Below are positions 1,416-51,822 of a DNA stretch of 64,000 nucleotides, in pieces. The position numbers were made by a program, and so were the translations under genes. The first letter of the stretch is position 1; every line of letters begins with the position of its first letter. The notes below the pieces were generated by a model. It saw only the letters and a list, made by a program, of their open reading frames with translations. It did no database searches and was not told where the DNA came from. The DNA comes from Nanobdellota archaeon (GTDB lineage: Archaea > Nanobdellota > Nanobdellia > Woesearchaeales > ARS49). The stretch lies in contig JBFYLW010000003.1 in NCBI GenBank assembly GCA_041305185.1, forward strand, positions 2,692 through 66,691, in the 5' to 3' direction.

Positions 1416-2381
1416 TTATAATTCTGGCAGGTAGTTTATCTGGTGGACTGCATAATTCAATATGATTGTGTAGTCTCTTAATATTTCTGAGAATTCCTGT
1501 TTCATCTTGTTCATGATTGCATACAATTCAATGATGTCTTTTACCATTATCTCGAATTCCATATCTGCAGCACCAAGCGCGTCTGTTATGAAGATTGTGT
1601 TTGGATTGTATCTTAGGGATGTGATGAGATTGTTTTTCTTTTCTTTTGTCAGATTTTCCAGATGCAGAAATATTTTGTAATATTGATATCCTAATTTTGC
1701 AGTATTAATCATTGCCCTGAATCCCATGATTATTTTTTGTTTTTTCAGGTTGTTTATTCTGTATCTTACGGCGTTTGGAGTGATTTTTAGCTTGCTGGCC
1801 ATCTTATGAAGGGGTTCGCGTGCATTTCTTGCTAATACGTTTAGGATTTCAGCATCTTTTAGATCTATTTTGACGTTTCCGTACGTGCCTATCGGCCATT
1901 CAGTAAAATCATATTTGTCAAATAGGTAGTTGTTTTTGTAGTGGTAGATGTTTGTTGCTATTGAGACGTATTTATCTCGGATGTTTTTTGCAAACTTTGT
2001 ATATATGTCATCCACTGTGTCTTTTGCCTTGTTGACATTTTTTGCCCAGATTACTATGACTAGGTTCCACGGTCCGTCTATGCTTGCAATCCATCCTATG
2101 TTCTGGTTTTTCTTGGCGTAATCAATGATTTCTTTCTCTTTTTCAGGTGTCGTGTTCTGTAGTTTTAGCAGCAGTCTGCAATAAATATATCCTAGTTTTG
2201 CAGTGTCTATTACGGCGTAATATCCCAGTATTATCTTGTTTTCTTCAAGTCTTTTCATCCTGTAATTTACAACTTCTTTGGACAGTCCTGCTTTTTTTGC
2301 AATCTGGGATATGTTGCTTCGTGCATTCATGTCTAGTTCAGAAAGTATTAGTTTGTCCTTTTTGTCTAATTTTATATTCAT
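1416..2381 (-). CDS. Lrp/AsnC-family transcriptional regulator, tandem-duplicated (two HTH+RAM units in one chain)
   Basis: Two repeats of 'DxxDxKILxxLxxNARxxxxxIAKxxGLSxxxVxxRxKxLexxKIIxGY' HTH_AsnC pattern (residues ~10-70 and ~170-230). Confidence 0.8.
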   Translation of the reverse strand: MNIKLDKKDKLILSELDMNARSNISQIAKKAGLSKEVVNYRMKRLEENKIILGYYAVIDTAKLGYIYCRLLLKLQNTTPEKEKEIIDYAKKNQNIGWIASIDGPWNLVIVIWAKNVNKAKDTVDDIYTKFAKNIRDKYVSIATNIYHYKNNYLFDKYDFTEWPIGTYGNVKIDLKDAEILNVLARNAREPLHKMASKLKITPNAVRYRINNLKKQKIIMGFRAMINTAKLGYQYYKIFLHLENLTKEKKNNLITSLRYNPNTIFITDALGAADMEFEIMVKDIIELYAIMNKMKQEFSEILRDYTIILNYAVHQINYLPEL

Positions 2382-2488
2382 TTATTATCAAATGTAAATA
2401 TATCCTTATAAACTTTTCGTTTTGATAAAAATATCAATCAAACATTTTATTTATATCTTTGAGTATATATGTGCTGTGAGGTTAAACC

Positions 2489-2540
2489 TGGGTTTTATGT
2501 CCGGAAGAATTCCGGAAAAAGCCGGGTTTTTCCGGTGGGA
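2489..2540. promoter_or_regulatory. palindromic operator-like repeats in divergent intergenic region (Lrp gene <-> lipoprotein operon)
   Basis: Perfect inverted repeat tccggaa-gaa-ttccgga and adjacent imperfect ccggaaaaagccgg/ccgggtttttccgg palindrome between divergently oriented genes. Confidence 0.4.
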
Positions 2541-2576
2541 AAAAATGATAATGTGTGAATTGCAGGGGGCTAAAAA

Positions 2577-3374
2577 ATGAAAAAAATATTTTTGGGATTG
2601 ACTTTGATTATTTTATTGCTTTCAGCTTGCACTCATTCGCAGGTATCTGGGAATGGTGTTGTGGAAGCGGGTAATGAGACTGTGGAAACTGCAGTGGGGC
2701 AGAATTCTACTCAAACAGCTGAAAAGCTTGCTGCAGATGAGAAGAAAGAGGCTGAAAGGGTTGAGGTAGAGAAAAAAGCAGAGGAGGAATTGATTAATCT
2801 GGCGAAGCTGAAGAAGGCAGTTAATGCTACTGTCGAGAAATGCAGCGGGTTTGAAGATGGGTATAACAGCACTTTCTGTTTTGCAGAGTATGGTGTGAAC
2901 TTGATGAAGCAGTATGGCAGGATTCAGGATTTGCATCCTGTTTACACTCTGTGTGAATATGCTGATGACAGTAATTTTTGTTATTTTTATGCTGCTGTTA
3001 TGCTTAATGGTCCGGGGTATTGCAATAAAGTCAAAGATAAGACTGGTTGTGAATTGATTTCTGATCCTTTGTTTTGCAACAGGTTGATTAATCCTAATCA
3101 GTGTCTTTTGGAAAGGGCAACGCTTATTCGTATTGTGAACAAGCCTGCGGCTCAGATGACTTGTGATATGATGAAAAGGTTTGATAAGTATCCTGATGCT
3201 GAAAAATACAATTGTGCTGAGATTGATTTTGGAGAAGTTTCTTATGATAAGGAGTCTTTCAAGGATCGTTTCTTTTTGATGCATTTTATGACTGCACTTA
3301 TGGATTTTGAACTCTATAATACTACCTTGGAGGATTATAATAGGAATAAGAGGGTGGACTATGAACAAGATTAA
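2577..3374 (+). CDS. Cys-rich secreted lipoprotein, family shared with 14326..14961 and 15429..16064
   Basis: Signal peptide + lipobox 'LLLSAC'; conserved motifs 'NSTFCFAEYG' and 'SNFCYFYAAV' shared with two paralogs; coiled-coil K/E-rich insert. Confidence 0.6.
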   Translation: MKKIFLGLTLIILLLSACTHSQVSGNGVVEAGNETVETAVGQNSTQTAEKLAADEKKEAERVEVEKKAEEELINLAKLKKAVNATVEKCSGFEDGYNSTFCFAEYGVNLMKQYGRIQDLHPVYTLCEYADDSNFCYFYAAVMLNGPGYCNKVKDKTGCELISDPLFCNRLINPNQCLLERATLIRIVNKPAAQMTCDMMKRFDKYPDAEKYNCAEIDFGEVSYDKESFKDRFFLMHFMTALMDFELYNTTLEDYNRNKRVDYEQD

Positions 3375-3579
3375 GATTATTGGAAGGCTGGTTTTGATTG
3401 CGTTGTCAATAATGTTTATTTCTTTTGTTATTGAGACGAACAGCGGCACTTTTTTTCATGTTTCTGCTGCTGGCGCTATTATTTTCTGGTCATTAATTGG
3501 CATTTGGCGGGATATCACTGGTGGCAAAAAGGCTTACCTGGTTTGGAAAGATGGAAGGCCGAAGCTGGATATGAGATGA
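3361..3579 (+). CDS. small two-TM membrane protein partnered with the Cys-rich lipoprotein
   Basis: Start ATG at 3361 overlaps upstream stop; 'MNKIKIIGRLVLIALSIMFISFVIE...AIIFWSLIGIWRD' paralogous to small ORF 16061..16225 ('MNKTKILIKLGLIGLVVVIMLFSVE...AAVFWLVIGVLRE'). Confidence 0.5.
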   Translation: MNKIKIIGRLVLIALSIMFISFVIETNSGTFFHVSAAGAIIFWSLIGIWRDITGGKKAYLVWKDGRPKLDMR

Positions 3580-4424
3580 ATTTGATGAAAGACTTGAATT
3601 ATTGCAGGTTAGTGACGCATGAGCCTTTGATAGTCAAAGGGCTGTCTTTGGAAGGTACTGCTGGTTTGAAAGAGAAGGTTCCTGCATTTCTTGGCGTGGG
3701 TATCAGCAGCAGGGATGTTTTGTCTTGCGGTCTTCCTGTTGATGTTTTGAGTATGGTCTTGATGAGTGAGCTTGTTGGTACTGAAAAATATGTTCTTGTG
3801 GCTGATGAGCATGCGAAATTCAATGGTTTTGATGAGGGTGTCGTCAAAAATGTTGCTTCTTTGTATTCAGGAGTGTTGTCGAGTGTGCTTGGGAGTCTTG
3901 GGCTGTCTGGTTGGAAGGTATTGCTTGGTTCAGATATTGGTCAAAGTGCGGATTACCAGAATATCTTGAAATCTGTTGATGAAAAAAATGGTTATGTGAA
4001 GAGAGAGCTTGCAGATATGGTTTGGTTTGCAGAACGCGGTGTTAAACTGAAAATTGGCTGGTCGAAAGATGAGGGTTGTGATTTTGGCGAGCTTTTTTTT
4101 GATAACAAGTTCAGGGAGCTTGACAGGGCTGAAATGTCTTTTCTGTACTTGAAATCCGGAAGGACCTTTAACCCCGATAAGCCTTTTTCAGCTCCGTATT
4201 TTTGTGATAATGCTGAAAATAGGGTTATGCTGTGTTCAGGGGAGGATGTGGGTTTGAAGATATCGTCTGCTCAAAAAAGGTTTGGGAAGAATAAAGTTTC
4301 TGGTTATCTTCGTTTTTTGAATGATTTGATGGATTTGTATGATTGCGTAATCAGGCCGGTAAAAGAACAGGCTTTGGAGAACAGGTTGCAATATGTTATT
4401 GACAGGTGCTGCCATGATATTTGA
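3576..4424 (+). CDS. hypothetical protein (start re-assigned to ATG 3576, ATGA overlap with upstream stop)
   Basis: Intact 282-aa ORF in operon; no recognisable motifs. Confidence 0.4.
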   Translation: MNLMKDLNYCRLVTHEPLIVKGLSLEGTAGLKEKVPAFLGVGISSRDVLSCGLPVDVLSMVLMSELVGTEKYVLVADEHAKFNGFDEGVVKNVASLYSGVLSSVLGSLGLSGWKVLLGSDIGQSADYQNILKSVDEKNGYVKRELADMVWFAERGVKLKIGWSKDEGCDFGELFFDNKFRELDRAEMSFLYLKSGRTFNPDKPFSAPYFCDNAENRVMLCSGEDVGLKISSAQKRFGKNKVSGYLRFLNDLMDLYDCVIRPVKEQALENRLQYVIDRCCHDI

Positions 4425-4448: not shown

Positions 4449-5357
4449 ATGAAAAAATTGCTTGCAGCGCTGGTTTTAGGGGGGGTTTTGGGTTTTGTAC
4501 AGCCTGTTATCGCGCAGGAGGCTCCTAAGGAGAAGAGTGCTGTAGAAAGAGTGGGAGATGGTATTGGTGATTTGTTTGGCAGGGGTCTTGATTATATCAC
4601 TCGCAAATTAAGAGAAAGAGAGCTTGAGGGTGAGATTGAGAGCAAGTTTTCCTATAATCTTGATGATAAGAATCTTGAAGGGTTTTTAGCAAAGAAACGC
4701 TATGAAGTTTTTGAAAGTGCTGATGTGACTAATTTCACGGATAATAAAGCTGTTGCAGTGCTTGAATACGATTTTAGGAGTCCTGAGCCGGGCAGGTACA
4801 GGAATTTCAGGACCAGGATGCAGCGGGAGTTTTCATTGACTGATGGCTCGATTGATGCTGTTGTCAGCCAGGGTGAGGATTGGGGTGAGTTGTGTGGCAG
4901 GAAAGTGAGCGAAGCTGTTTTGAATGATTTTTTGCTGCTTAACTCTGCTGTTGCAGATAGGTGGGATAAGAAGGTGCAGGACTGTGCTGCTCAGAACAAG
5001 GAGCATGTTTTTGATTATCAGATTGTGTTTATTGCGCATAACGGTGATGTTTACAAGCGTGATAGTGCTGAAAAGTCTAAAGTGGAATTGCCGGCTAAAA
5101 AATCTCAGGCAGGTATTAGTCTGACTGTTAAGGATAAGTTTGGGAATGTTCTTCAGAATCAGAGGTTTGTTGAGGAATACCAAAATCAGGGTTCCTGGCA
5201 GTATGAGCGCGAGTTGTTCAACAGGAGTATGAGTGGTTTTGATTTTACTGAAGAAAATCATTGGAATGAGAGGGACTTTTTGCAGCAGCTTGGCGCTTCT
5301 GCAGATAGTGCTTTTCGTGAAGGAGTCAAATACATAAAAAGTTTGTTTCAAGATTAG
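4449..5357 (+). CDS. secreted hypothetical protein
   Basis: N-terminal signal peptide 'MKKLLAALVLGGVLGFVQPVIAQEAP'; GGAGG-like SD 8 nt upstream. Confidence 0.5.
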   Translation: MKKLLAALVLGGVLGFVQPVIAQEAPKEKSAVERVGDGIGDLFGRGLDYITRKLRERELEGEIESKFSYNLDDKNLEGFLAKKRYEVFESADVTNFTDNKAVAVLEYDFRSPEPGRYRNFRTRMQREFSLTDGSIDAVVSQGEDWGELCGRKVSEAVLNDFLLLNSAVADRWDKKVQDCAAQNKEHVFDYQIVFIAHNGDVYKRDSAEKSKVELPAKKSQAGISLTVKDKFGNVLQNQRFVEEYQNQGSWQYERELFNRSMSGFDFTEENHWNERDFLQQLGASADSAFREGVKYIKSLFQD

Positions 5358-7921: not shown

Positions 7922-8648
7922 TCATTTTTCTCAAGATAATTATAAAGATAGAAATCTGGATAATTACCTGAATTTTGATAAAATTAAAAAAAATCCGTTT
8001 AATAAGCTTAAACTAATGCTTGCTGCTGGCGCTCTTTTAGCGCTGGGTCCCTGTGTTGCTTTTTGCTGCAGCGGTTCTTCCAAGGATTACTTCAGGAAAT
8101 CAGACCTGGATGTGAATAAGATTCATGGAAAGTATGAATTGACTCTTACTGAAAAGAATGAGCCGAATCCTTTTGTTATTAATGATGATTTGGTTGATAT
8201 AATCAGGAAAGAGACAAAAAATTGTGAAACCGAGCTGGATAAAGCAAAGGCAATCTTTTATTGGATGAGAAAAAATATCAGTTATGACTTAACAAAATAT
8301 TTTACACGTACTAACGGCTTTGTTAGAAATCATAAGTTATTTGGAGATGAGTCTGGCTATAGAAACAGCACTGAAGTTATAGACGATGAAGAGGGAATAT
8401 GTGGAGAATCTGCTTTCTTGTATGTTACAATGGCTCGCTGCGTGGGGTTGGATTCTAATATTGTTTTTGTTAATAGAGATTGTTATTCAGATAGTGTCAA
8501 TCATGGTTGTGCTGTTGTGCATATTAGAGGGAAGAGAATTCTTGTTGATCCTGCGTACGATACTTTCGATATTAAGCATAAAGAATACCGGATCCAGTCT
8601 GATGAGGAAATTATCAGGAATTACCGTCATTGGAGGAAAAATGAATGA
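7890..8648 (+). CDS. transglutaminase-like cysteine-protease-fold protein, membrane/lipid anchored
   Basis: N-terminal hydrophobic segment with Cys cluster 'LAAGALLALGPCVAFCCSGSS'; Cys-His-Asp triad context 'GICGESAFLYVTMARCVG' ... 'HGCAVVHIRG' ... 'ILVDPAYD' typical of transglutaminase core. Confidence 0.65.
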   Translation: MVRIMTKDWSDHFSQDNYKDRNLDNYLNFDKIKKNPFNKLKLMLAAGALLALGPCVAFCCSGSSKDYFRKSDLDVNKIHGKYELTLTEKNEPNPFVINDDLVDIIRKETKNCETELDKAKAIFYWMRKNISYDLTKYFTRTNGFVRNHKLFGDESGYRNSTEVIDDEEGICGESAFLYVTMARCVGLDSNIVFVNRDCYSDSVNHGCAVVHIRGKRILVDPAYDTFDIKHKEYRIQSDEEIIRNYRHWRKNE

Positions 8649-9958
8649 GCTTGGAGCAGGGTTTGGATGAATTGAAAATTTATGGGAGGCCACGGATAAG
8701 CTGGTGGCTGAAGAAGCAAAAGAAGAAAATATTAGGTACAGCATTTTCAGTTGCTGCGCTTGCTTGTTCTCTTTACGGCGGGTTGGTGTTTTATCAGCAT
8801 CAGAAAGAAAAAGCAGCAGAGAAGATGTACCAGGCTAACAATATTGAAGAGATTAAGCAGAGTAATAAAATAATGACTGAAGAGCTTGAGGTATATAAGC
8901 GGAAATATGATGGTCCTGAAGGATTGGATAACTTGATTTTTACCCAGCAAAGAAAACTCGCCGAGTTTGAGAAACGATTGCAAACTGAAGTGTTTCCAAT
9001 AAGTTTTAAAGAGGTGCATAGAAAAAGGTTGGCAAATTACCCATTGAAAATATTATTAATTGATGATTCCTTTTATATGCCTTCTGACAAAAACCTTCTT
9101 GGATTCGATATTAAAGAAATATATAAAGATCTTCCAACTGCTCTTTTATTTACGTATGGAATTATCAATTTTAATGAATCGACTGTGGTTTACCATGAAA
9201 ATGAAATGAATAAATTAAAAACAGTCGTGATAGCGCCAGGATTAGGAAAAAAAATATTGCATGAAACTGAATCTTGTAGCGGTTATAGAATATCTTTAGA
9301 ATGTTACCATAACAGAATTGCTTTAAAATATGAAAATTTAAATGGGAAAGATATTCGTCGAACTTTTTTTATTGAAGGAGATCAGATCCGTGCGCAAGAT
9401 GGTGATGCGGATTTTTCTACATATAAAGGCATGAGATATGATATTTCGTGGGGTAATCTGCATAAGAAATCAGAAAATGAGGAACTTTGGACAATAGGGA
9501 GCAATATTAATGAATATTTTCTTGTCAATAATCAGGCATTTATTCGTTCTGATAATACTTTATTTGCACATAACATATTCACTGGAAAGGAGATGTGGCG
9601 TTTTTCTTATAACACCAAAACCAAAGGCACACCGTTATGCGAGGATGTCCGGGTATATGTCGGCGCAGAAGATAATCATCTTTATTGTTTAGATTCAAAC
9701 ACTGGTAATTTGGTTTGGAAGTCTCAGACGAATGACAAGGTTAGGGAGCGTCCTTCTGTGGATAATGGTCGTGTTTATTTTGGTTCGCTGGACTCTCATA
9801 TTTACGTTTTGGACTCGAGAAATGGCAGGCGTTTGTGGATGCATGAGCTTGACAGCCCGATTAGTTCTCCTCCGATGGTTAAGGATGATATGCTTTACTT
9901 GGCTACGACTAATGGTAATTTGTATGCTTTTAAGAAGAAGAAGAGTGATAAGAAATGA
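8645..9958 (+). CDS. membrane-anchored PQQ-like beta-propeller repeat protein
   Basis: N-terminal anchor module 'MSLEQGLDELKIYGRPRISWWLKK'+TM; C-terminal repeats 'HLYCLDSNTGNLVWK', 'HIYVLDSRNGRRLWM', 'GNLYAF' typical of PQQ/BamB-like propellers. Confidence 0.6.
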   Translation: MSLEQGLDELKIYGRPRISWWLKKQKKKILGTAFSVAALACSLYGGLVFYQHQKEKAAEKMYQANNIEEIKQSNKIMTEELEVYKRKYDGPEGLDNLIFTQQRKLAEFEKRLQTEVFPISFKEVHRKRLANYPLKILLIDDSFYMPSDKNLLGFDIKEIYKDLPTALLFTYGIINFNESTVVYHENEMNKLKTVVIAPGLGKKILHETESCSGYRISLECYHNRIALKYENLNGKDIRRTFFIEGDQIRAQDGDADFSTYKGMRYDISWGNLHKKSENEELWTIGSNINEYFLVNNQAFIRSDNTLFAHNIFTGKEMWRFSYNTKTKGTPLCEDVRVYVGAEDNHLYCLDSNTGNLVWKSQTNDKVRERPSVDNGRVYFGSLDSHIYVLDSRNGRRLWMHELDSPISSPPMVKDDMLYLATTNGNLYAFKKKKSDKK

Positions 9959-11139
9959 GTCTGGATGATTTGAAGATAAAAGGAAGAACTAAATCCTTGT
10001 GGTGGTTGAAAGACAAGTTTAGAAAGTACAAGGCTCCGGTAGTTGCGACTGTGCTTGCTGGCGCTTTGGGCTTGTATGGGTTGGTAAGCAGTTACAGGGC
10101 TGCTGTATATAAGAACGGGCTTTTTGAAAATTATAATTCTGTTAAAGTTATGATTGAGGAAAAAAGGTATGATGCTGCATTGGATTTGCTGACTATATTG
10201 AAAGAAGAGCTTAAGCAAGCAGATGATGCGAGATTGGTGGGTTTAAGCAAAAATGTTGATAGGCTTGAAAATAGAGTATGTGATGGTAAAATTGGTTTTG
10301 AAGAGGATTTTGAAAAATTAAAAAATTTCTTTGAAGAATATCAAAAGAACAGTGCACGGGCTATTGAGGGGTTTGACTCTTTAGAATCAAGATTCGAGAA
10401 TTATGCGAAAAGTTATCAGGAAGATAATCAGGAATTCCAATGTTTGAAAAAAGAATTTGAAGAATTTAAAAAAAGAATCTGCGAGAGTCAGATACGTTTA
10501 GATAGATTGGAAACTGATTTGATTGAAACCAGGCAAAAAAGAGAGTCTAGGTTGGATTTAGGTCAAACATTTTATTCGGACGATTTTTCCAAAGATAAAG
10601 GTTGGTTGTTGGGAATTATAGACAGCAGTTTGGGAAAGGATGCGTGTAGTTATAACATTTCCAATGGAACTCTTACTTTGACTGCTGGCTGGTCTTCGTG
10701 TCCTCTTGCATTAGTGGACAAGTCTGTTAAAAATGCAATTATTGAGGTTGATGCTCAATTGGTCAGTTCTTCTTATAAGTCAGAGTTGGTTTGTGCAGGG
10801 ATTTGCGTTAGGGTTCCTGAAGGTGATTTGAGGAATATGCGCGATATGTGTGGTTTTAACATTCGTTCTGGTGTTGGTGAAAAGAATACTTTGTTCAGCA
10901 GGAATGGTTCCAAGAGTATGGGTAAGAGCACATTTGCTCCAAATATTGAGATAGGGAAGTGGTACCATCTTAAAATGGACGTGTATGACACTCATGTTCA
11001 ATGTTATATTGATGATAACCTTATTTTTGATGAGGTTCTGCCAGAAGGGAGTATTCCTGAAAAAGGCAGGGTGGGTTTTTACTGTAATGGTTCTGAGATT
11101 AGCAGGTATGACAATTTTAAACTTATTTTGAGGAACTGA
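9955..11139 (+). CDS. membrane-anchored coiled-coil protein with C-terminal concanavalin/LamG-like (DUF1080-type) domain
   Basis: Shares N-terminal module 'MSLDDLKIKGRTKSLWWLKDK'+TM with flanking genes; C-terminus '...KGRVGFYCNGSEISRYDNFKLIL' resembles end of 3-keto-disaccharide-hydrolase/DUF1080 lectin fold. Confidence 0.45.
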   Translation: MSLDDLKIKGRTKSLWWLKDKFRKYKAPVVATVLAGALGLYGLVSSYRAAVYKNGLFENYNSVKVMIEEKRYDAALDLLTILKEELKQADDARLVGLSKNVDRLENRVCDGKIGFEEDFEKLKNFFEEYQKNSARAIEGFDSLESRFENYAKSYQEDNQEFQCLKKEFEEFKKRICESQIRLDRLETDLIETRQKRESRLDLGQTFYSDDFSKDKGWLLGIIDSSLGKDACSYNISNGTLTLTAGWSSCPLALVDKSVKNAIIEVDAQLVSSSYKSELVCAGICVRVPEGDLRNMRDMCGFNIRSGVGEKNTLFSRNGSKSMGKSTFAPNIEIGKWYHLKMDVYDTHVQCYIDDNLIFDEVLPEGSIPEKGRVGFYCNGSEISRYDNFKLILRN

Positions 11140-11140
11140 A

Positions 11141-12073
11141 ATGAGCTTGAAGCAGGATTTGCATGAATTGAAAATTTATGGGAGGCCGCGAATAAGCTGG
11201 TGGCTGAAAAAGCATTCAAAAAACCTATTAAAGACAGCTGCTTCAATTTCTCTGCTTGCTTGTGCTCTTTACGTTTCAATGGGGTTTTATTATTCTAAAA
11301 AAGCAGTATCGGAAAAAATCTATGCTTTGGAGCAGATGGTTAGGGAAAATATAGACAACACTGTGCTGAAGGAGGAGGGCTTGATTGCTTTTGTTTCTAA
11401 CAGGGATGGTAATGATGAGATTTATTTGATGAACTACAATGGAAAAAACCAAAAAAGACTGACTTTCAACACTACCTTTGATGGCGACCCTGCTATCTCC
11501 CCTGACAAGAAGACGATTGCTTATGCTTCCTGCGCTAATGGAAACTTGGATATTTTTCTTATGGATATGTACGGGTTAGCTCGTCAGCAGATTACCAAGG
11601 ATAGTTCGAACGAAAAGAATCCTGAATGGTCGCCTTGCGGTTCATATCTTCTTTTTGAAAGTGACAGAGGAAAGGGATGGGGAATTGATAAGATTGATCT
11701 TGCAACAAAAAATGTCAGTGAATTCTTAGATGGTGGTACAAATGATATTAATCCTAAAATATCGCCCAATGGAGTGTATCTTGCTTATAATATTGGCAGT
11801 TGTTCTATAGTGTGTAATTGCAGAACTAGGATTACAAAAGATTGTGAATCATCAACGAATATTTTCAACCCTTACTGGTCAAAAGATAGTTCTTCTTGTA
11901 ATTTTACAGATGATCCTAATGTGATTATGGTGTATACGCCAATAGGAGATAGGACTGTTTTTAACAAAAAAGTGAATGGAAATTGGCAGATATTTATCAA
12001 AGACAATGGAAATGGCAGTGAAACCCAGCTGACAAACACTGATTCAAATAATTATATGCCGGATTGCAGGTGA
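11141..12073 (+). CDS. membrane-anchored TolB-like (PD40) beta-propeller repeat protein
   Basis: N-terminal module 'MSLKQDLHELKIYGRPRISWWLKK'+TM; repeats 'DGNDEIYLMNYNGKNQKRLTFNTTFDGDPAISPDKKTIAY', 'NPEWSPCGSYLLFESDRG', 'NPKISPNGVYLAY' typical PD40/TolB blades. Confidence 0.6.
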   Translation: MSLKQDLHELKIYGRPRISWWLKKHSKNLLKTAASISLLACALYVSMGFYYSKKAVSEKIYALEQMVRENIDNTVLKEEGLIAFVSNRDGNDEIYLMNYNGKNQKRLTFNTTFDGDPAISPDKKTIAYASCANGNLDIFLMDMYGLARQQITKDSSNEKNPEWSPCGSYLLFESDRGKGWGIDKIDLATKNVSEFLDGGTNDINPKISPNGVYLAYNIGSCSIVCNCRTRITKDCESSTNIFNPYWSKDSSSCNFTDDPNVIMVYTPIGDRTVFNKKVNGNWQIFIKDNGNGSETQLTNTDSNNYMPDCR

Positions 12074-14017: not shown

Positions 14018-14227
14018 TTACTTCATGTGTCTGACTTCTTTGAACAGTTTGTATGCGTACAGCCAGACTGCTACGGTGATTCCCACCATTAATGCTGTTA
14101 ACAATATGTGTTGGAATCCGCCGTATGGTTTTTGCATCATCTCTGTTCCCATTGCTCTTCCGTATTCTCCTGTCTGTGCTAGTGCAGAGCCTGCTGCCAG
14201 TAGACTTGCTAGTAGAATCTTCTTCAT
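14018..14227 (-). CDS. small secreted/membrane protein
   Basis: Signal-like N-terminus 'MKKILLASLLAAGSALA' and C-terminal TM helix; 69 aa. Confidence 0.3.
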   Translation of the reverse strand: MKKILLASLLAAGSALAQTGEYGRAMGTEMMQKPYGGFQHILLTALMVGITVAVWLYAYKLFKEVRHMK

Positions 14228-14325: not shown

Positions 14326-14961
14326 ATGAATGTGAAAATTATTTTGCTGTTGTTTTTGTTGGCTTCCTGTAGTCCGCCTGATCCTGATGCAGGATTGTCG
14401 ATGGGTCAGATAGCTGAAAGGCAGATTATTGAGACCAGGTCTAATTGTTCTGTTCACGTTGATGATTATAATTCAACTTTATGTTTTGCAAATTATTTGA
14501 TGAATTTCAGGAAATCTGCGCTTGAGTCTGATCGTTCTTATCCTGATTATATGATTGATACTTTTTGTTCGGCTGCGAAAGTGCGTGACTTGTGCTTTTT
14601 TTATGTTGCTGCGACCATTAAAAAAAGTGAGCTTTGTAAGCATGTCGTTGCCGATAAAAGAATTGAATGCCGCATGTTGTCTGATGATTATGTCTGTTAT
14701 TCTTTTAAGAATAAATTTGACTGTATGGTGAATAAGGCGATTTTTATGGAATTTGTTGACCATTCAAAATCTGTTGAAATCCGCAGGTATTTGGCTGAGC
14801 AGAACCAGTCTGTTGAAAAGCTTGAAGAAAACTGTGAGGCGCTCTCAGCTCATTTGAAAGACGATAATCTGTCTTATGAAGAAAGATTTTTGAAAGCATA
14901 TTTGCTATTACGGTATTATGATATTGATGTGGATTTTATTAATGCAAGTCAGCTTGTTTGA
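14326..14961 (+). CDS. Cys-rich secreted lipoprotein, paralog of 2577..3374 and 15429..16064
   Basis: Start re-assigned to ATG 14326 ('MNVKIILLLFLLASCSPP' lipobox); motifs 'NSTLCFANY', 'DLCFFYVAAT' shared with paralogs; the 14092 start would run through an antisense gene. Confidence 0.55.
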   Translation: MNVKIILLLFLLASCSPPDPDAGLSMGQIAERQIIETRSNCSVHVDDYNSTLCFANYLMNFRKSALESDRSYPDYMIDTFCSAAKVRDLCFFYVAATIKKSELCKHVVADKRIECRMLSDDYVCYSFKNKFDCMVNKAIFMEFVDHSKSVEIRRYLAEQNQSVEKLEENCEALSAHLKDDNLSYEERFLKAYLLLRYYDIDVDFINASQLV

Positions 14962-15053: not shown

Positions 15054-15302
15054 TTATTTTCCCCATCTGGAGAAATAAATTATTCCTATGACGCATATGA
15101 CTGTTGCGATTACTGCTGTAGCTAGCTGTAATAGCCATCCTGTTCCTGTTAGTCCCATCATTTCAATTATTTTTGCGACTGCTGACTTTATGAAATCGTT
15201 CCACGTCAGTGCTATTACGAATGCGAATGCTCCTGCTATGGCTATTCCTATCTGTGCTTTCACCCGGTTTTTGAATTCTTTTGCTTGTTCTATTGTTTTC
15301 AT
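15054..15302 (-). CDS. small two-TM membrane protein
   Basis: 82 aa with two hydrophobic helices (GIAIAGAFAFVIAL; LLQLATAVIATVICVIGIIYF). Confidence 0.35.
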   Translation of the reverse strand: MKTIEQAKEFKNRVKAQIGIAIAGAFAFVIALTWNDFIKSAVAKIIEMMGLTGTGWLLQLATAVIATVICVIGIIYFSRWGK

Positions 15303-15428: not shown

Positions 15429-16064
15429 GTGGTTGCTATGAAAAAAATGATTTTATTGTTGGCATTGATTTTGCTTGTTGGCTGCAGTCAGCCTGAGATT
15501 GAAGAAATTGATGATGAGCTTGAGCAGAGCAGGAAACTGCTTTTGGAGGCGGAGATTAATGAGTCTTTGAGTTTTTGCTCTTATGAAACTGATGAGTTTA
15601 ACAATACTTTTTGTTTTGCCGAGAAGGCTGTTTATTTTAAGGAGCAGGATGTAAAATATCCTTTTGATGTTGTTAAGCGTTTTTGTGGTGCTTCCAACGA
15701 TTCTGACATGTGTTATTTTTATGTGGCTATGAATACGGGTGATGTTTCTCTTTGTATTAACGTTAAGGACAAGATTGGTTGTACTTTGGTTTCAAATGAC
15801 AGGTTCTGTTATACGATGTCAAACAGGGAGGAGTGTTTGATGACTCAGGCTTTTATGCTTCAGTTTGTTGATTTGAATAAATCAGCTGAAATATGCAGTT
15901 CTCTGCCTCAGAAGTATCGGGTTGAGAGTGAGGATGATCTTTCTTGTGCTGATATTGATTTTGAGCCGGAGGAAATGAATGTTTCGAATCGCAGCAGGTT
16001 TTTGATGACTTATGTGCTTTCTGAGATTGCTGAGTTTGAGGTTGAGAAGGTCAGAAGAAGATGA
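15429..16064 (+). CDS. Cys-rich secreted lipoprotein, paralog of 2577..3374
   Basis: Lipobox 'LLVGCSQP'; motifs 'NNTFCFAEKAVYF', 'SDMCYFYVAMN', 'VKDKIGCTLVSNDRFCY' align with 'NSTFCFAEYGVNL', 'SNFCYFYAAVM', 'VKDKTGCELISDPLFCN' of the 2577 gene. Confidence 0.6.
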   Translation: MVAMKKMILLLALILLVGCSQPEIEEIDDELEQSRKLLLEAEINESLSFCSYETDEFNNTFCFAEKAVYFKEQDVKYPFDVVKRFCGASNDSDMCYFYVAMNTGDVSLCINVKDKIGCTLVSNDRFCYTMSNREECLMTQAFMLQFVDLNKSAEICSSLPQKYRVESEDDLSCADIDFEPEEMNVSNRSRFLMTYVLSEIAEFEVEKVRRR

Positions 16065-16225
16065 ATAAGACTAAAATTCTGATAAAGCTGGGTTTGATTG
16101 GCCTTGTTGTTGTTATTATGCTTTTTTCAGTTGAGAGCCAGATTGCGACTATGCATAGTTTTTTTGGCGGTATTGCCGCCGTATTCTGGCTGGTGATTGG
16201 CGTTCTCAGGGAGTTATTTGCCTAA
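16061..16225 (+). CDS. small TM protein, paralog of 3361..3579 (not in ORF track, 54 aa)
   Basis: ATG 16061 overlaps upstream TGA (ATGA); translation MNKTKILIKLGLIGLVVVIMLFSVESQIATMHSFFGGIAAVFWLVIGVLRELFA. Confidence 0.45.
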   Translation: MNKTKILIKLGLIGLVVVIMLFSVESQIATMHSFFGGIAAVFWLVIGVLRELFA

Positions 16226-16704
16226 TTGGAATATTTTGTTGATTCTTCCTGTAGAAGTTTGCTTTGGTATAGAAGGTTGGCTTTTCTCGTGTTCATTTCG
16301 TCGTTTATTGAGTAATCAAAGCATTTCTTGTAGTGCGGGTATTGATTGTGGAGTACTCTGTTTTTTTCATAGAGGTCTAGTGAGCGGAGGAAGGACATTC
16401 TCCATGCTTTGTACGTTTCTTCTCCTGTTTGATTGTAATACTTGTTTTTGAGGGTTTCTGTGTTTTCTGTTGACTGGCTTAGCTCTTGTCTATAGTCTGA
16501 AAACAGGCTTTTTATGTCTTCCCTGTCGCAGTCTGCGTGCAGTGGAGGTTCGTAGAATATGTTCAATGCAAACCTGCCGAAGGTGTTCAGTAGCGGTGCG
16601 AGTATGATGAATCCTATTATCATGAAGATTATTCCTTGCGTTTTTGATACTTTTCTGTTTCCCTGGTAATATTTTGTTGTGTTGTATGTTTTTTTGATTT
16701 TCAT
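16222..16704 (-). CDS. membrane hypothetical protein
   Basis: N-terminal TM helix 'GIIFMIIGFIILAPLL'; 1-nt spacing to downstream M48 protease gene. Confidence 0.35.
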   Translation of the reverse strand: MKIKKTYNTTKYYQGNRKVSKTQGIIFMIIGFIILAPLLNTFGRFALNIFYEPPLHADCDREDIKSLFSDYRQELSQSTENTETLKNKYYNQTGEETYKAWRMSFLRSLDLYEKNRVLHNQYPHYKKCFDYSINDEMNTRKANLLYQSKLLQEESTKYSN

Positions 16705-16705
16705 T

Positions 16706-17734
16706 TTACGACTCGTGTACGTGTGCTTTCATGAATTGTACTAGGTATGCCATTTTCATTGTCAATAGGTTGCTTGCTTCTTTTTCGTATTTTTCCTGTT
16801 CGTTGAATATTTCAGGCAGTTCTGTGTCGATATCGAATTTGACTTTTTTGATGTTGAGGATTTCCAGTCTTTCGCTTATGCTGGGGTGTGTTGTCCACCA
16901 TGAGCTTTTTGCTGTTAGAACCTGGTCATAGGATTTTTCTATGTTTTTCTCATCATAGGACTGTTTCATGTACTTGTAGATGTTTATCACTTGTTTTTTC
17001 TCTTTCAGGTAGTGGAGGATGTGTTGTGGTACCACGTTTTCGAATATGTTGCTTATTATGCAGTATTTTACCAGTGCGTTGGCGAATTCCTGTTCTCCTA
17101 CAAGGTCTGCTGCGAACCTGTCTGCTCTGTATTCTATTCTTCTGTCATACCATAGTGTGATGAGTGCATAGTATCTTGACAGCAATAAGAAAACCAGATA
17201 TGTTGGTAAATAAAATATTATTGAGATTCCGATTCTGATGTTTTGCTTGTTTATCTCTCTTTGGAGTTCTATGAATCTTTGTATTCTGTACACAAAATAT
17301 CCGAGGACTGTGTCTTTTCTTGCGAAATGCCCGTATTCGTGGACTATTATTGCGGTGATGTCTTTTTCGTCCAGCAGTCTGAGAGCTCCCAGTCCGATTA
17401 TGAGGTCTTTTCTGAAGAGTCCTGTTACTGCTATGTCGCTTTTTTCTGACAGTATTATTTTGTGCGGTCTTTTTAGTCCTGTTTTTTTGGCTACCTGGTC
17501 TATTATCTTGTGTAGTTTTTGTGCGTCTTTTGGCTTGAGCTCGAGTCTGTAGCCTTGCTTGTCTGTTTTGATTGCAAGGTATATTCCGAAAAGTATTGGC
17601 CAGCAGAATAGAAGGAACGTGAAGGTGAATGTGACCAGTAGAAATCCTACTATTATTAGAAATATGAGTATCATGCTGAATCCGAAGAGCAGCATGAATG
17701 CTGAATATGCAAGTTCGAATTTTCCGCTTTCCAT
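16706..17734 (-). CDS. M48-family (HtpX/Ste24-like) zinc metalloprotease, membrane bound
   Basis: HExxH zinc motif 'IIVHEYGHFARKD' flanked by multiple TM helices. Confidence 0.6.
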   Translation of the reverse strand: MESGKFELAYSAFMLLFGFSMILIFLIIVGFLLVTFTFTFLLFCWPILFGIYLAIKTDKQGYRLELKPKDAQKLHKIIDQVAKKTGLKRPHKIILSEKSDIAVTGLFRKDLIIGLGALRLLDEKDITAIIVHEYGHFARKDTVLGYFVYRIQRFIELQREINKQNIRIGISIIFYLPTYLVFLLLSRYYALITLWYDRRIEYRADRFAADLVGEQEFANALVKYCIISNIFENVVPQHILHYLKEKKQVINIYKYMKQSYDEKNIEKSYDQVLTAKSSWWTTHPSISERLEILNIKKVKFDIDTELPEIFNEQEKYEKEASNLLTMKMAYLVQFMKAHVHES

Positions 17735-50238: not shown

Positions 50239-50472
50239 TTATTGCGAGGCACATGTTGAGTATATTCTGTTGTATAGGTCTGCTACTGTTTTCATTTGCT
50301 TGAATTCTGTTTCTGAGATGTATATGCCCAGATCGAATTCTATGTTTGCTAATAGTTCAATTGGTGATAATTCATCTTTGAATATGATATTAAGGCGGTC
50401 TGTTGGTTTTACTCCCCGGGCTGCGTATTTGCTGTTTAGCATTGGTATTATTATCTCTGTTAATTCGTTCAT
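50239..50472 (-). CDS. acyl-carrier-protein-like small protein (start re-assigned to MNELTE)
   Basis: 77 aa; 'FKDELSPIELLANIEFDLGIYISETEFKQMKTVADLYNRI' follows the ACP helix II/III pattern (DSLxxVELxMxxEExFGIEIPDEE). Confidence 0.4.
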   Translation of the reverse strand: MNELTEIIIPMLNSKYAARGVKPTDRLNIIFKDELSPIELLANIEFDLGIYISETEFKQMKTVADLYNRIYSTCASQ

Positions 50473-51371
50473 TTTGCATAGTCTATGAATATGTCTTTTG
50501 ATTTTAGGAATTTTACAGCGCTGATTCCTGCGTTGCACCCGTCTCCTACGTTTTTTGCCAGTTGTCTGCATTTTTGCATGCAGTTGCCTGCCGCGAATAC
50601 TCCTGGCACGCTGGTCATTCCGTTTTCATCGGTCTGTATTATTCCATCTTTCATTGTTATTCCTAGTTTTGCTGCAAAGCTTGTTGCTCCTGCTGTTCCG
50701 CAGGCGAGGTATGCTGCGTCATATTCTTCTTCGCCTTTTTCAAATGTTATTTTCTTCAAAAACTTGTCTGCCACGAACTCTTTAACTCTTGCTGTTTTCA
50801 TTTTTATTTTTCTTTTTTTGAGTTCCTGCAGTAATTTTTTGTCTATGTTAAATTTCTCTGCGTGTGATATTATTGTGATGTTTTTAGTGTATGATGTGAG
50901 TTCTATTGCGTCTTCTGCTGCGAAGTTTCCGTTGCCTATTACTGCTACTTTTTTCCCTTTGTACATTGGTCCGTCGCAGCTTGGGCAGGTGTGGACTCCT
51001 TTGCCCATTAGTTCTTTTTCTCCTTTGATTCCTGACCATTGTATTGGTATGCCTGTTGCGATGATTATTGTTTTTGCTTCGTATGTTTTTTGTGTTGTTT
51101 TTACTTTGAAAGTCTTGTTTTTTTGTATGCTTACCGCTTCTTCTTGTATTATTTTAGCTCCCCATTTTTCAGCTTGCTGTATGCCTAATTCAAGGAGTTT
51201 CTTGCCGTTTATCCCGTTTGGGTATCCGAAGTAGTTGAAGATTTCTGGCGCGTAAGAAAGCTGGCTTTTGTCTTTTTTGCCTATTACGAGTGTTTTTAGT
51301 TGTGCTCGTGCTGTGAATATGGCTGATGTGAGTCCTGCTGGTCCGCTTCCTATTATGATTACGTCTTGCAT
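50469..51371 (-). CDS. trxB: thioredoxin reductase
   Basis: FAD motif 'VIIIGSGPAGLTSA', redox-active 'CPSCDG', NAD(P)H motif 'VAVIGNGNFAAE', 'FAAGNC'. Confidence 0.8.
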   Translation of the reverse strand: MQDVIIIGSGPAGLTSAIFTARAQLKTLVIGKKDKSQLSYAPEIFNYFGYPNGINGKKLLELGIQQAEKWGAKIIQEEAVSIQKNKTFKVKTTQKTYEAKTIIIATGIPIQWSGIKGEKELMGKGVHTCPSCDGPMYKGKKVAVIGNGNFAAEDAIELTSYTKNITIISHAEKFNIDKKLLQELKKRKIKMKTARVKEFVADKFLKKITFEKGEEEYDAAYLACGTAGATSFAAKLGITMKDGIIQTDENGMTSVPGVFAAGNCMQKCRQLAKNVGDGCNAGISAVKFLKSKDIFIDYAK

Positions 51372-51402: not shown

Positions 51403-51822
51403 TTATTCCAGCGAGCATCCTGTTTTCTCGCTTAGCGTTTCCAGAGGCATTTCTCCGGGGATTTTTTCTCCGTTTATGTCCCAGGTGGGATATCCTGTTA
51501 TGCCTGCGAACTCGCACGCGTCTGTCTGTCCGCCCTTTGCGTCAGCGCATTCTATGTAGTTTACGTGCTGGATGCTGTCTCCGAACATTTTTTTCTGGTT
51601 TTGGCAGTGTCCGCACCAGGTTGCTCCGTACAATGTTGCTCCTTTTTCTGTCAAACACTTTGCGAAACCGTCATATTTTGATGCAGGTGTTGTTGGTGTT
51701 TTTTTAGGCATTATTTTGTCCTGCAGGAACGCGAATGCTACTACTACTATTACGAGTGCTGCTATGATGAATATTGTGTTTTTGTTCATTTTTTCACCCT
51801 TGTTTTGGCTGTTGTTATTCAT
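51403..51822 (-). CDS. membrane-anchored thioredoxin-like protein (VKOR-associated Trx-like type)
   Basis: TM anchor then 'LYGATWCGHCQNQKKMFG' CxxC motif typical of VKOR-fused Trx-like domains. Confidence 0.6.
   Translation of the reverse strand: MNNNSQNKGEKMNKNTIFIIAALVIVVVAFAFLQDKIMPKKTPTTPASKYDGFAKCLTEKGATLYGATWCGHCQNQKKMFGDSIQHVNYIECADAKGGQTDACEFAGITGYPTWDINGEKIPGEMPLETLSEKTGCSLE

What the first reader, a model, noticed from the sequence alone, without database searches (positions are those of the whole stretch)
2577..3579. Recurring two-gene cassette: Cys-rich lipoprotein + overlapping mini membrane protein (3 lipoprotein paralogs, 2 mini-protein paralogs)
Lipoproteins 2577..3374, 14326..14961 and 15429..16064 share the spaced Cys motifs N-(S/N)-T-(F/L)-C-F-A-(E/N), (D/N)-(x)-C-(Y/F)-F-Y-(A/V)-A and VKDK-x-GC-x-L-(I/V)-S, with about 8-10 conserved Cys. 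Two of them are followed, via an ATGA overlap, by a ~55-70-aa membrane protein beginning MNK(I/T)KI(I/L). The second mini-ORF (16061..16225) is below the ORF-track cutoff. This is a paralogous secreted-protein family with a dedicated small partner, possibly a surface adhesin/chaperone or toxin/immunity-like pair.
Basis: seen in the sequence. Interest (0 to 1): 0.6.

Follow-up and report, generated by a model that had tools for sequence, protein, structure and literature searches.

The report
Woesearchaeal Cys-repeat lipoprotein plus microprotein
Three related genes in this DPANN (Woesearchaeota) archaeal genome encode membrane-tethered, cysteine-rich helical surface proteins of an undescribed family, and two of them are tightly coupled to a strongly conserved tiny two-helix membrane protein; the pairing is real, but its function is unknown and it does not look like a toxin/immunity pair.

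Summary
lipo1 (2577-3374), lipo2 (14326-14961) and lipo3 (15438-16064) are colinear paralogs (BLASTP E 1e-13 to 1e-31). mini1 (3361-3579) and mini2 (16061-16225) are homologous two-TM microproteins (E 6e-8). Only mini2 has the ATGA overlap; mini1 overlaps lipo1 by 14 nt. lipo2 has no mini.

The window is from a Woesearchaeota archaeon. About 18 clusters (50% identity) of full-length relatives exist among 1.8 billion representatives. There are no Pfam, NCBIfam, PADLOC, PHROG or PDB matches.

The lipoprotein has a lipobox, a charged stalk and a confidently modelled all-helical domain (pLDDT 89) with 10 conserved Cys. Its core matches an undescribed Cys-paired helical repeat (hhalign 96%).

The mini forms only 9 clusters. 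In every locus where its upstream side was read, it overlaps the end of a family lipoprotein gene. Its dN/dS is 0.10-0.27, against 0.30-0.43 for the lipoprotein, so it is a real and more constrained gene.

The lipo1 cassette heads a conserved surface-protein operon. In relatives that operon starts with a Zn-ribbon/TerB gene, of which an 11-codon remnant survives here.

Best reading: a membrane complex acting as an envelope scaffold or sensor. Function is inferred, not shown.

The parts
2577..3374 (+). lipo1: 265-aa lipobox protein (LLLSAC). It has a long charged stalk and a C-terminal ~160-aa Cys-repeat helical domain. It is the first gene of a long, tightly packed plus-strand operon.
   Evidence: ORF and alignment. 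Orthologs with the same synteny in L006 (53% id), L016 (58%) and L010 (38%).
3361..3579 (+). mini1: 72-aa two-TM hairpin microprotein with a basic C-terminal tail. It overlaps lipo1 by 14 nt, has a GGTGG Shine-Dalgarno-like site 4 nt upstream of its ATG (3352-3356), and its stop overlaps the next ORF's ATG (ATGA).
   Evidence: Sequence. Six 72-aa cluster representatives including mini1 itself. dN/dS 0.11-0.27. AF2 model: H3-25, loop 26-30, H31-53, beta-hairpin 58-71.
14326..14961 (+). lipo2: 211-aa lipobox paralog (LLASC) with 9 of the 10 conserved Cys. It has no mini partner.
   Evidence: Its ortholog P0016 (L012/L013) also lacks a mini.
15438..16064 (+). lipo3: 208-aa lipobox paralog (LLVGC) with all 10 conserved Cys. 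This is the protein that was modelled.
   Evidence: AF2 pLDDT 89.2, pTM 0.80, 12 helices. Orthologs at 46-52% id in L004, L005 and L017.
16061..16225 (+). mini2: 54-aa two-TM hairpin microprotein with an ATGA overlap with lipo3. Its last 4 nt overlap the end of the convergent 160-aa gene (16222-16704, minus strand).
   Evidence: Sequence. 78-85% aa identity to the L017/L004 minis while the lipoproteins are only 51-52% identical. dN/dS 0.10-0.16.
2382..2576 (.). Conserved intergenic leader between the divergent tandem Lrp/AsnC regulator gene (1416-2381, minus strand) and lipo1. It holds the palindrome TTGATAAAAATATCAA (2422-2437), TATA-like A/T boxes and the hairpin TCCGGAA-GAA-TTCCGGA (2500-2516), followed by T5 and CCGGTGG.
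   Evidence: Nearly identical over most of its length to L016 in the alignment (read by eye, not computed), with conserved blocks in L006 and L010. The hairpin is kept with changed sequence in L006 and L010. RNA fold z = -3.3.
2545..2580 (+). 11-codon remnant ORF (MIMCELQGAKK*). It looks like what is left of the Zn-ribbon/TerB gene that precedes the lipoprotein in relatives. Its stop overlaps the lipo1 ATG (ATGA).
   Evidence: Sequence. The TerB genes of L006, L010 and L014 start MII (L015 starts MLI), end in ...KK, and overlap the lipoprotein gene by 4 nt. No TerB homolog elsewhere in the window.
15054..15302 (-). DUF5654 small membrane protein, divergent from lipo3. It is a conserved neighbour of the lipo3-type cassette.
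   Evidence: Pfam PF18898, E=1e-12. Same arrangement in L004 and L017.
3576..4424 (+). 282-aa ORF translationally coupled to mini1 (ATGA). It is specific to this genome; relatives go straight from the mini to the 302-aa or 391-aa gene.
4449..5357 (+). 302-aa protein with an N-terminal hydrophobic, signal-peptide-like segment and no known domain. It is the conserved next gene after the mini in L010 and L016.
   Evidence: 58% id to L010 4845-5753. L016 1950-2084 matches its N-terminus.

Best explanation
SHOWN
- The three genes are paralogs of a Woesearchaeota-restricted, undescribed family of membrane-tethered proteins.
- Each member has a lipobox signal (a TM anchor in 2 of 24), a variable charged helical stalk, and a compact all-helical domain of about 160 residues with ten conserved Cys.
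- The centre of that domain is one canonical copy of a Cys-paired helical repeat (C-x8-CY-x2-[IV]A-...-x13-C). This repeat occurs in long arrays in other uncharacterised metagenomic proteins.
- Two of the paralogs are followed by an overlapping gene for a 54-72 aa microprotein predicted to form two TM helices joined by a loop of about 5 residues.
- The microprotein was found only downstream of family lipoprotein genes. It evolves under stronger purifying selection than the lipoprotein.

INFERRED
- The Cys pairs are disulfide staples across helix-turn-helix corners.
- The domain faces outward. This rests on the signal/lipobox and two conserved N-x-S/T sequons.
- The microprotein lies N-in/C-in in the membrane (positive-inside rule).
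- Translational coupling yields a roughly 1:1 lipoprotein-microprotein membrane complex. In it the fast-evolving ectodomain is a binding or scaffold surface, and the slow-evolving microprotein is the intramembrane subunit. In the 72-aa class, a basic tail would link the complex to the cytoplasmic side.
- In the ancestral operon that cytoplasmic side includes a membrane-associated Zn-ribbon/TerB protein encoded directly upstream.
- The unit sits at the head of a conserved operon of exported or anchored proteins (transglutaminase-like, PQQ and PD40 beta-propellers). It lies behind a conserved leader and a divergent Lrp/AsnC regulator.
- I therefore read it as an envelope scaffold or sensor module of this DPANN lineage, not a toxin system.
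For: Paralogy and colinearity.

Family size and range: 18 full-length representatives at E<1e-10 among 1.84e9 proteins, and every named member is Woesearchaeota or Nanoarchaeota.

Anchoring: lipobox Cys in 22/24 members and a TM anchor in the other 2. An N-x-S/T sequon lies before the second conserved Cys in 16/24. Archaeal lipobox lipoproteins and AliA are reported for DPANN (PMC12462473).

Fold: AF2 pLDDT 89, pTM 0.80, 12 helices. The Cys lie at helix ends and starts.

Repeat relationship:
- The Cys spacing 9-14-9 in the core matches the alternating 14 / 9-12 spacing of the repeat proteins.
- The HMM hits repeat proteins in 3-8 stretches each.
- hhalign gives probability 96%, E=2e-9.

Mini is real and dedicated:
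- Nine clusters in 5.8e9 proteins.
- Every locus where the upstream side was read has it overlapping a family lipoprotein, by 4 or 14 nt.
- dN/dS is 0.10-0.27, against 0.30-0.43 for the lipoprotein.
- GGTGG sites lie upstream of the 72-aa class starts.
- The AF2 model is a two-helix hairpin.

Operon context and TerB.

Conserved leader.

A membrane-anchored WCGHC thioredoxin-like protein is encoded in the same window at 51403-51822. This is compatible with extracytoplasmic disulfide chemistry.
Against: - No direct evidence of a physical lipoprotein-mini interaction. No complex model could be evaluated.
- The mini's outward loop is only about 5 residues. Any contact with the ectodomain must be small, or must go through the lipid anchor or stalk.
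- Many family members work without a mini (lipo2, L008, L012-L015, L019, L020). The mini is therefore accessory.
- TerB is absent from this window. In several loci it is present without a mini (L014, L015), so a TerB-mini link is weak.
- The disulfide state is untested.
- Two members each lack a single Cys rather than a pair.
- Woesearchaeota are thought to be anaerobes, where free thiols or metal binding are plausible alternatives.
- No expression data were examined.
Confidence: 0.45

Rival explanations
1. Thiol- or metal-binding envelope buffer. The ten Cys are kept reduced in this probable anaerobe and bind soft metals or metalloids such as tellurite or selenite. The lipoprotein then acts as the extracytoplasmic arm of a TerB-type stress response, and the mini is a membrane accessory.
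For: A TerB (tellurite-resistance family) gene overlaps the lipoprotein gene by 4 nt in L006, L010, L014 and L015, and a remnant survives in the window. The ten Cys are almost invariant across a family that is otherwise about 30% identical. Single-Cys losses rather than pair losses occur in two members.
Against: - The Cys spacing (C-x8-C and C-x13-C at helix ends) is that of a structural repeat. It is not that of known metal-cluster motifs such as CxxC or CxC.
- The same spacing recurs in long helical-repeat arrays.
- AF2 folds the domain confidently without ligands.
- A membrane-anchored CGHC thioredoxin-like protein is present in the window.
- No metal-binding family matched.
Confidence: 0.2
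2. The mini is a dedicated biogenesis factor. It would help membrane targeting, lipidation, signal-peptide handling or folding of its cognate lipoprotein, and would not be a stable subunit.
For: Strict adjacency and translational coupling. The mini is almost entirely intramembrane with a loop of about 5 residues, so it could contact the lipoprotein's signal peptide or lipid anchor.
Against: - Closely related paralogs and orthologs with equivalent signal peptides and the same fold need no mini (lipo2, P0016, P0017, P0020).
- The mini has no Cys or catalytic-looking residues.
- The 72-aa class has a conserved cytoplasmic tail, which has no obvious role in a purely intramembrane chaperone.
Confidence: 0.15
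3. Toxin/immunity-like pair. The exported Cys-rich lipoprotein would be a toxin or effector and the small membrane protein its immunity factor.
For: Small membrane proteins next to exported proteins are a common immunity arrangement. A PF14373 (Imm_superinfect) gene lies next to the lipo2 ortholog in L012/L013.
Against: - No toxin, effector or defence domain was found.
- The fold is a helical repeat with no PDB or viral match.
- The 'immunity' gene is more conserved than the 'toxin', the opposite of arms-race pairs.
- The loci are syntenic chromosomal operons across diverged genomes.
- Many 'toxins' have no immunity gene.
- No mobile-element context was seen.
Confidence: 0.05
4. The mini ORFs are chance ORFs, or gene-caller artefacts, in the 3' region of the lipoprotein genes.
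For: They are short (54 and 72 codons) and hydrophobic in a T-rich strand.
Against: - The ORFs are conserved in frame, with synonymous changes, in at least 9 sequence clusters.
- dN/dS is 0.10-0.27 at dS 0.5-3.4.
- mini1 and mini2 are homologous to each other.
- Start context and overlap geometry are conserved.
Confidence: 0.02

Closest known systems
Helicobacter cysteine-rich proteins (HcpA/B/C), Sel1-like repeat proteins
   Same: Both are exported all-alpha helical-hairpin repeat proteins in which each repeat carries a pair of Cys. In Hcp these form a disulfide bridging the two helices; this is my own background knowledge, not a tool result. Both are presumed protein-protein interaction scaffolds.
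   Different: There is no Sel1 (PF08238) or TPR hit at E<=0.1. No Hcp structure appears among the Foldseek PDB matches. The repeat here is about 23-26 residues with C-x13-C-x8-11-C spacing, against 36 residues for Sel1-like repeats. The host is archaeal, with a lipobox anchor and a microprotein partner.
Archaeal lipobox lipoproteins (substrates of AliA/AliB; PMC12462473)
   Same: Both have an N-terminal signal with a lipobox ending in Cys. DPANN archaea are reported to have predicted lipoproteins and AliA.
   Different: The mature domain here belongs to no described family. Lipidation was not tested, and AliA was not looked for in this genome.
Undescribed 'CY-x2-[IV]A ... LCEK' Cys-paired helical repeat proteins from metagenomes (e.g. 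P0031, P0032, P0034, P0037)
   Same: The central unit of the lipoprotein domain (FCGASNDSDMCYFYVAMNTGDVSLC in lipo3) aligns to the repeat unit with hhalign probability 96%, E=2e-9, and has the same Cys spacing.
   Different: Those proteins carry 6-16 regular repeats behind a TM anchor and have no Pfam family either. The lipoprotein family has one canonical unit flanked by degenerate ones, plus a conserved C-terminal helix.
Membrane-associated TerB-domain proteins (PF05099, with Zn_ribbon_15 PF17032)
   Same: A Zn-ribbon + TerB gene overlaps the start of the lipoprotein gene in four related loci and has left a remnant in the window.
   Different: TerB is a neighbour, not part of the cassette. 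It is absent from this window and is not correlated with presence of the mini.
Phage spanins (Rz/Rz1: overlapping genes for a membrane protein and a lipoprotein)
   Same: Both have overlapping genes encoding a lipoprotein and a small membrane protein. There are weak PHROG hits to Rz-like spanins and Cor, through the signal peptide only.
   Different: The hits are not significant (E 0.02-0.08) and cover only residues 1-24 or fail the per-stretch threshold. Gene order and overlap type differ. Archaea have no outer membrane to span. The context is a chromosomal operon, not a lysis cassette.

Membership tests
Prokaryotic/archaeal lipobox lipoprotein | N-terminal signal with a basic n-region, a hydrophobic h-region and a lipobox [LVI][ASTVI][GAS]C | tested here: met
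   lipo1 LLLSAC, lipo2 LLASC, lipo3 LLVGC. The lipobox Cys is present in 22/24 family members. There are weak LPAM_1 and lipoprotein-family N-terminal hits.
Prokaryotic/archaeal lipobox lipoprotein | Covalent lipid (archaeol thioether) on the lipobox Cys and cleavage of the signal peptide | not testable with these tools
   This needs Triton X-114 partitioning or mass spectrometry, as in PMC12462473.
Sel1-like repeat / Helicobacter cysteine-rich protein family | Match to the Sel1 repeat profile (PF08238); 36-residue repeats | tested here: not met
   No Sel1 or TPR hit at E<=0.1 for the lipoproteins or the repeat proteins. No Hcp structure among the Foldseek PDB hits.
Cys-paired 'CY..IA...LCEK' helical repeat class (undescribed) | Repeat unit with C-x13-C-x8-11-C spacing and a CY-x2-[IVL]A signature | tested here: met
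   Core spacing 9-14-9. hhalign probability 96%, E=2e-9. Multi-stretch HMM hits.
Toxin-immunity / anti-phage defence systems | A recognisable toxin, effector or defence domain, or a PADLOC model match | tested here: not met
   No hits in PADLOC. No toxin domains in Pfam or NCBIfam. dN/dS pattern is opposite to expectation.
Phage spanin (Rz/Rz1) | Significant match to spanin families, in a lysis-cassette context with holin and endolysin | tested here: not met
   Only signal-peptide-level PHROG hits, E 0.03-0.08. The neighbours are chromosomal genes.
Disulfide-stapled extracytoplasmic domain | Conserved Cys form intramolecular disulfides (paired geometry in the structure; paired loss in evolution) | tested here: inconclusive
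   There is an even number (10) of conserved Cys, placed at helix ends and starts. Two members each lack one Cys, not a pair.
Two-TM hairpin microprotein (the mini family) | Two hydrophobic helices with a short loop, conserved as a coding sequence | tested here: met
   AF2 gives H3-25 and H31-53. Hydropathy peaks. dN/dS 0.10-0.27. There is no significant match to any Pfam family; DUF7865 scores E=0.026, below its cutoff.

The most novel reading that the evidence does not exclude
The cassette is a DPANN-specific trans-membrane contact or stress-sensing module. A rapidly evolving, disulfide-stapled, glycosylated surface lipoprotein would bind a host-cell or envelope ligand. An ultra-conserved two-TM microprotein would relay this across the membrane to cytoplasmic partners (the Zn-ribbon/TerB protein and the Lrp/AsnC-controlled surface-protein operon). 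That would make it a new kind of minimal receptor used by symbiotic Woesearchaeota.
Probability: 0.1. Interest if true: 0.7.

Novelty: new variant of a known kind. Interest (0 to 1): 0.4.

Why it matters
DPANN archaea such as Woesearchaeota are uncultivated and are thought to depend on partner cells. Their surface proteins are the likely interface with those partners, and most are unannotated.

This work defines three things:
- an undescribed lineage-specific lipoprotein family with a confident all-helical model that has no structural match;
- a link from that family to a wider, unnamed Cys-paired helical repeat;
- a conserved microprotein that standard ORF cutoffs can miss.

If the lipoprotein-microprotein pair is a real complex, it is a small, tractable entry point into archaeal lipoprotein biology and DPANN envelope organisation. 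If not, it is simply a well-delimited family of hypothetical proteins.

Tried and rejected
Family and structure libraries:
- Pfam, NCBIfam, PADLOC and PHROGs on the lipoproteins, minis and neighbours gave no significant family. Only signal-peptide-level matches appeared.
- PDB sequence search with two family profiles and with a repeat protein gave only N-terminal lipoprotein-signal matches.
- Foldseek against PDB and BFVD gave a best E of 0.6 and TM about 0.3, to designed helical repeats and 14-3-3.
- Rfam and tRNA scans of the window found nothing.

Collection scans:
- The scan with 11 sequences gave only 3 loci.
- The genome-contig scan gave 1 locus.

Other tests:
- A third mini after lipo2, or in mini-less loci, was sought by tblastn with word size 2. 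None was found.
- The 55-aa ORF upstream in L019 is not homologous to the mini.
- Bacterial sigma-70 and terminator scans are not informative for an archaeon.
- A literature search for Woesearchaeota Cys-rich lipoproteins found no papers.
- I considered a fused lipoprotein-mini AF2 run. I dropped it because the tool returns no PAE or coordinates, so an interface could not be judged.
Full report
**1. The observation**

The ORFs at 2577-3374 (lipo1, 265 aa), 14326-14961 (lipo2, 211 aa) and 15429/15438-16064 (lipo3, 208 aa from ATG 15438) exist. They align colinearly.

| Pair | BLASTP E | Identity |
|---|---|---|
| lipo2/lipo3 | 3e-31 | 31% |
| lipo1/lipo3 | 1e-24 | 31% |
| lipo1/lipo2 | 2e-13 | 23% |

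tblastn finds no further copy in the 64 kb.

The two mini ORFs are homologous (E 6e-8, 35% identity over 52 residues) and both begin MNK(I/T)KI.

- mini1 begins at ATG 3361 and overlaps lipo1 by 14 nt. It is not an ATGA overlap.
- The ATGA overlaps are lipo3/mini2 and mini1/ORF 3576-4424.
- lipo2 has no mini. The TTG ORF after it is unrelated and lies over a real DUF5654 gene on the other strand.
- The third quoted motif fits lipo1 and lipo3 only.

All five proteins are present as called genes in public collections.

**2. Source organism**

The window matches contigs of uncultivated archaeal MAGs. A syntenic locus, L006, comes from 'Candidatus Woesearchaeota archaeon isolate Yap150.bin7.227'. 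Named relatives are all Woesearchaeota or Nanoarchaeota. Predicted lipobox lipoproteins and the lipidation enzyme AliA are reported for DPANN archaea (PMC12462473).

**3. The lipoprotein family**

Rarity:
- A word-indexed search of 5.8e9 proteins found only 3 hits with lipo3, one of which is lipo3's own cluster, and 8 with a profile.
- An exhaustive HMMER search of 1.84e9 representatives found 18 full-length relatives at E<1e-10. It also found 23 weaker, multi-stretch hits.
- No Pfam, NCBIfam, PADLOC, PHROG or PDB-sequence match exists beyond the signal peptide.

Features in the 24-sequence alignment:
- A lipobox Cys in 22 sequences, and a plain TM anchor in the other 2.
- A variable E/K/A/Q-rich stalk.
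- Ten conserved Cys, at positions 47, 59, 83, 92, 106, 115, 124, 133, 153 and 170 of lipo3. Eight are invariant and two are conserved in 23/24.
- An N-x-S/T sequon just before Cys59 in 16/24 sequences.
- A conserved C-terminal helix (DRF..Y...L..FE).

**4. Relation to a Cys-paired helical repeat**

The weaker HMM hits are proteins of 166-509 aa. They carry many copies of a unit of about 23-26 residues...D.CY..[IV]A....D..LCEK..... One other weak hit, the 849-aa P0033, is not of this repeat type.

In the repeat proteins the Cys spacing alternates between 14 and 9-12. The lipoprotein core has spacing 9-14-9. A profile-profile comparison of the family with 22 extracted repeat units gives probability 96% and E 2e-9, aligning FCGAS..NDSDMCYFYVAMNTGDVSLC to the unit. 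The repeat proteins have no Pfam family either.

The lipoprotein domain is therefore one canonical unit plus degenerate flanking units of an undescribed helical repeat. By analogy with the Sel1-like Helicobacter cysteine-rich proteins (my own background knowledge), the Cys pairs are most simply read as disulfide staples. I could not measure distances in the model, so this remains inference.

A membrane-anchored thioredoxin-like protein with a WCGHC motif (51403-51822) is encoded in the window, next to a pyridine-nucleotide disulfide oxidoreductase. This is compatible with extracytoplasmic thiol-disulfide chemistry.

**5. The microprotein**

A profile search found only nine clusters in 5.8e9 proteins: six of 72 aa and three of 54-55 aa, counting mini1 and mini2 themselves.

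In every locus where the upstream side was read, the mini overlaps the end of a family lipoprotein gene.

| Overlap | Loci |
|---|---|
| 14 nt | window lipo1, L006/L009, L016, L018 |
| 4 nt | window lipo3, L004, L005, L017, L010 |

The 72-aa class has a GGTGG site 4-10 nt upstream of the ATG.

| Gene | Nei-Gojobori dN/dS | Comparisons counted |
|---|---|---|
| mini | 0.10-0.27 | dS 0.5-3.4 |
| lipoprotein | 0.30-0.43 | those where dS was not saturated |

mini2 is 85% identical to its L004 ortholog, while the lipoproteins are 51% identical. The mini is thus a real gene and is more constrained than its partner.

AF2 predicts helices 3-25 and 31-53 joined by a five-residue loop. In the 72-aa class a basic beta-hairpin tail follows (pLDDT 73). 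The positive-inside rule gives an N-in/C-in topology. The mini has no conserved Cys.

The mini is not universal in the family. lipo2 and its ortholog P0016 lack it, as do the loci of P0017, P0018 (L008), P0020, P0027 and P0029.

**6. Genomic context**

lipo1-mini1 opens a tightly packed plus-strand operon running from 2577 to about 13200. It encodes:
- a 302-aa protein with a signal-peptide-like N-terminus;
- three proteins with no known domain;
- a transglutaminase-like protein;
- PQQ-type and PD40 beta-propeller proteins;
- a lectin-like protein;
- an AsnC-type regulator.

The same order occurs in L006, L010 and L016. The 282-aa ORF 3576-4424 is an insertion specific to this genome.

In L006, L010, L014 and L015, a Zn_ribbon_15 + TerB gene overlaps the lipoprotein start by 4 nt. 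In L019 only the Zn-ribbon module is present nearby. The window has no TerB. It does keep an 11-codon ORF, ATGATAATG...AAAAAATGA (2545-2580). The start and end of this ORF mirror those of the TerB genes, and its stop overlaps the lipo1 ATG. This looks like a deletion remnant.

The 195-nt region between the divergent tandem Lrp/AsnC gene and this start is much more conserved than the genes. By eye it is nearly identical to L016 over most of its length, and it shares conserved blocks with L006 and L010. It contains a palindrome, TTGATAAAAATATCAA, and a hairpin (2500-2516). L006 and L010 keep the hairpin with changed sequence. The RNA fold z-score is -3.3.

lipo3-mini2 has its own conserved neighbours. 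These are a divergent DUF5654 gene, and a convergent 160-aa gene followed by an M48/M56 peptidase.

**7. Interpretation**

Shown:
- A lineage-specific family of membrane-tethered, Cys-paired helical-repeat proteins.
- A dedicated, translationally coupled two-TM microprotein for two of the three paralogs.

Inferred, with confidence about 0.45:
- The two proteins form a stoichiometric membrane complex.
- The variable ectodomain is a binding or scaffold surface, and the microprotein is the intramembrane and cytoplasm-facing subunit.
- The complex is part of an envelope operon under Lrp/AsnC control.

Rivals:
- A thiol- or metal-binding role tied to TerB (0.2).
- A biogenesis-factor role for the mini (0.15).
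- Toxin/immunity (0.05). It is disfavoured by the absence of any toxin domain, the inverted conservation pattern, stable synteny and the many partner-less members.
- Spurious ORFs (0.02), refuted by dN/dS.

**8. Novelty and score**

Neither protein belongs to a described family, and the fold has no detected structural relative in the libraries available. Even so, the kind of thing it is (an exported helical-repeat lipoprotein plus a small membrane partner of unknown function in an uncultivated lineage) is not surprising to a specialist. No function is demonstrated. Interest 0.4; new variant of a known kind.

Noticed in passing
window 2382-2576 (also L016 823-975, L006 4997-5149, L010 3000-3338): The intergenic leader between the divergent tandem Lrp/AsnC regulator and the lipoprotein/TerB operon is far more conserved than the flanking genes. 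It holds the palindrome TTGATAAAAATATCAA (2422-2437) and the hairpin TCCGGAA-GAA-TTCCGGA (2500-2516), followed by T5. L006 and L010 keep the hairpin with different sequence. RNA fold z = -3.3. It has no Rfam match. It could be an operator for the regulator or a structured 5' leader.
   Followed up: partly
window 2545-2580: An 11-codon ORF (MIMCELQGAKK*) whose stop overlaps the lipo1 ATG. It looks like the remnant of an almost precise in-frame deletion of the Zn-ribbon/TerB gene that precedes the lipoprotein in L006, L010, L014 and L015. In L016 the same deletion point fuses the TerB start directly to the lipoprotein.
   Followed up: partly
window 1-64000: The plus strand is G- and T-rich almost throughout, whatever the gene orientation. 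GC skew is positive in 30 of 32 two-kb bins (up to +0.36; the exceptions are -0.04 and -0.02). AT skew is at or below zero in all but two bins (down to -0.45; the exceptions are +0.03 and about 0). Cumulative GC skew rises almost monotonically. This is an unusually strong replication-strand-like compositional bias for an archaeon, and there is no turning point in the window.
   Followed up: no
window 8645-9958, 9955-11139, 11141-12073: Three consecutive signal-anchor proteins (a PQQ propeller, a lectin-like protein and a PD40 propeller) share a conserved cytoplasmic N-terminus, most closely in the first and third: MSL...L.ELKIYGRPRISWWLKK followed by a TM helix. This may be a sorting or recognition tag.
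   Followed up: no
window 51403-51822 (-) and 50469-51371 (-): A membrane-anchored thioredoxin-like protein with a WCGHC (PDI-type) active site lies next to a pyridine-nucleotide disulfide oxidoreductase. It is a possible extracytoplasmic thiol-disulfide system, which bears on the redox state of the Cys-rich lipoproteins. The Pfam Thioredoxin hit is below threshold (E 0.002).
   Followed up: partly
window 3576-4424 (+): A 282-aa ORF is translationally coupled to mini1 (ATGA). It is absent from the syntenic loci L006, L010, L016 and L018 and matches no family; the only hit is a weak one to tyrosine-tRNA ligase (E 0.028). It appears to be a genome-specific insertion into the operon.
   Followed up: partly
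window 16222-16704 (-) and 16706-17734 (-): The convergent 160-aa gene overlaps the mini2 stop by 4 nt and is followed by an M48/M56 (BlaR1/HtpX-like) membrane peptidase. The 160-aa gene is conserved next to the lipo3-type cassette in L004 and L017.
   Followed up: partly
P0031, P0032, P0034-P0037, P0039, P0042 (metagenomic proteins, not in the window): These form a class of TM-anchored proteins made of 6-16 tandem repeats of about 23-26 residues (...D.CY..[IV]A....D..LCEK...). The Cys spacing alternates strictly between 14 and 9-12. They have no Pfam family and no PDB relative.
   Followed up: partly
L012 3628-3909 (-), L013 1793-2074 (-): A PF14373 (Imm_superinfect) small membrane protein gene lies divergently upstream of the lipo2 ortholog P0016. 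In the window, the equivalent position (14018-14227, minus strand) holds an unrelated 69-aa protein with a hydrophobic N-terminus and one further hydrophobic segment.
   Followed up: no
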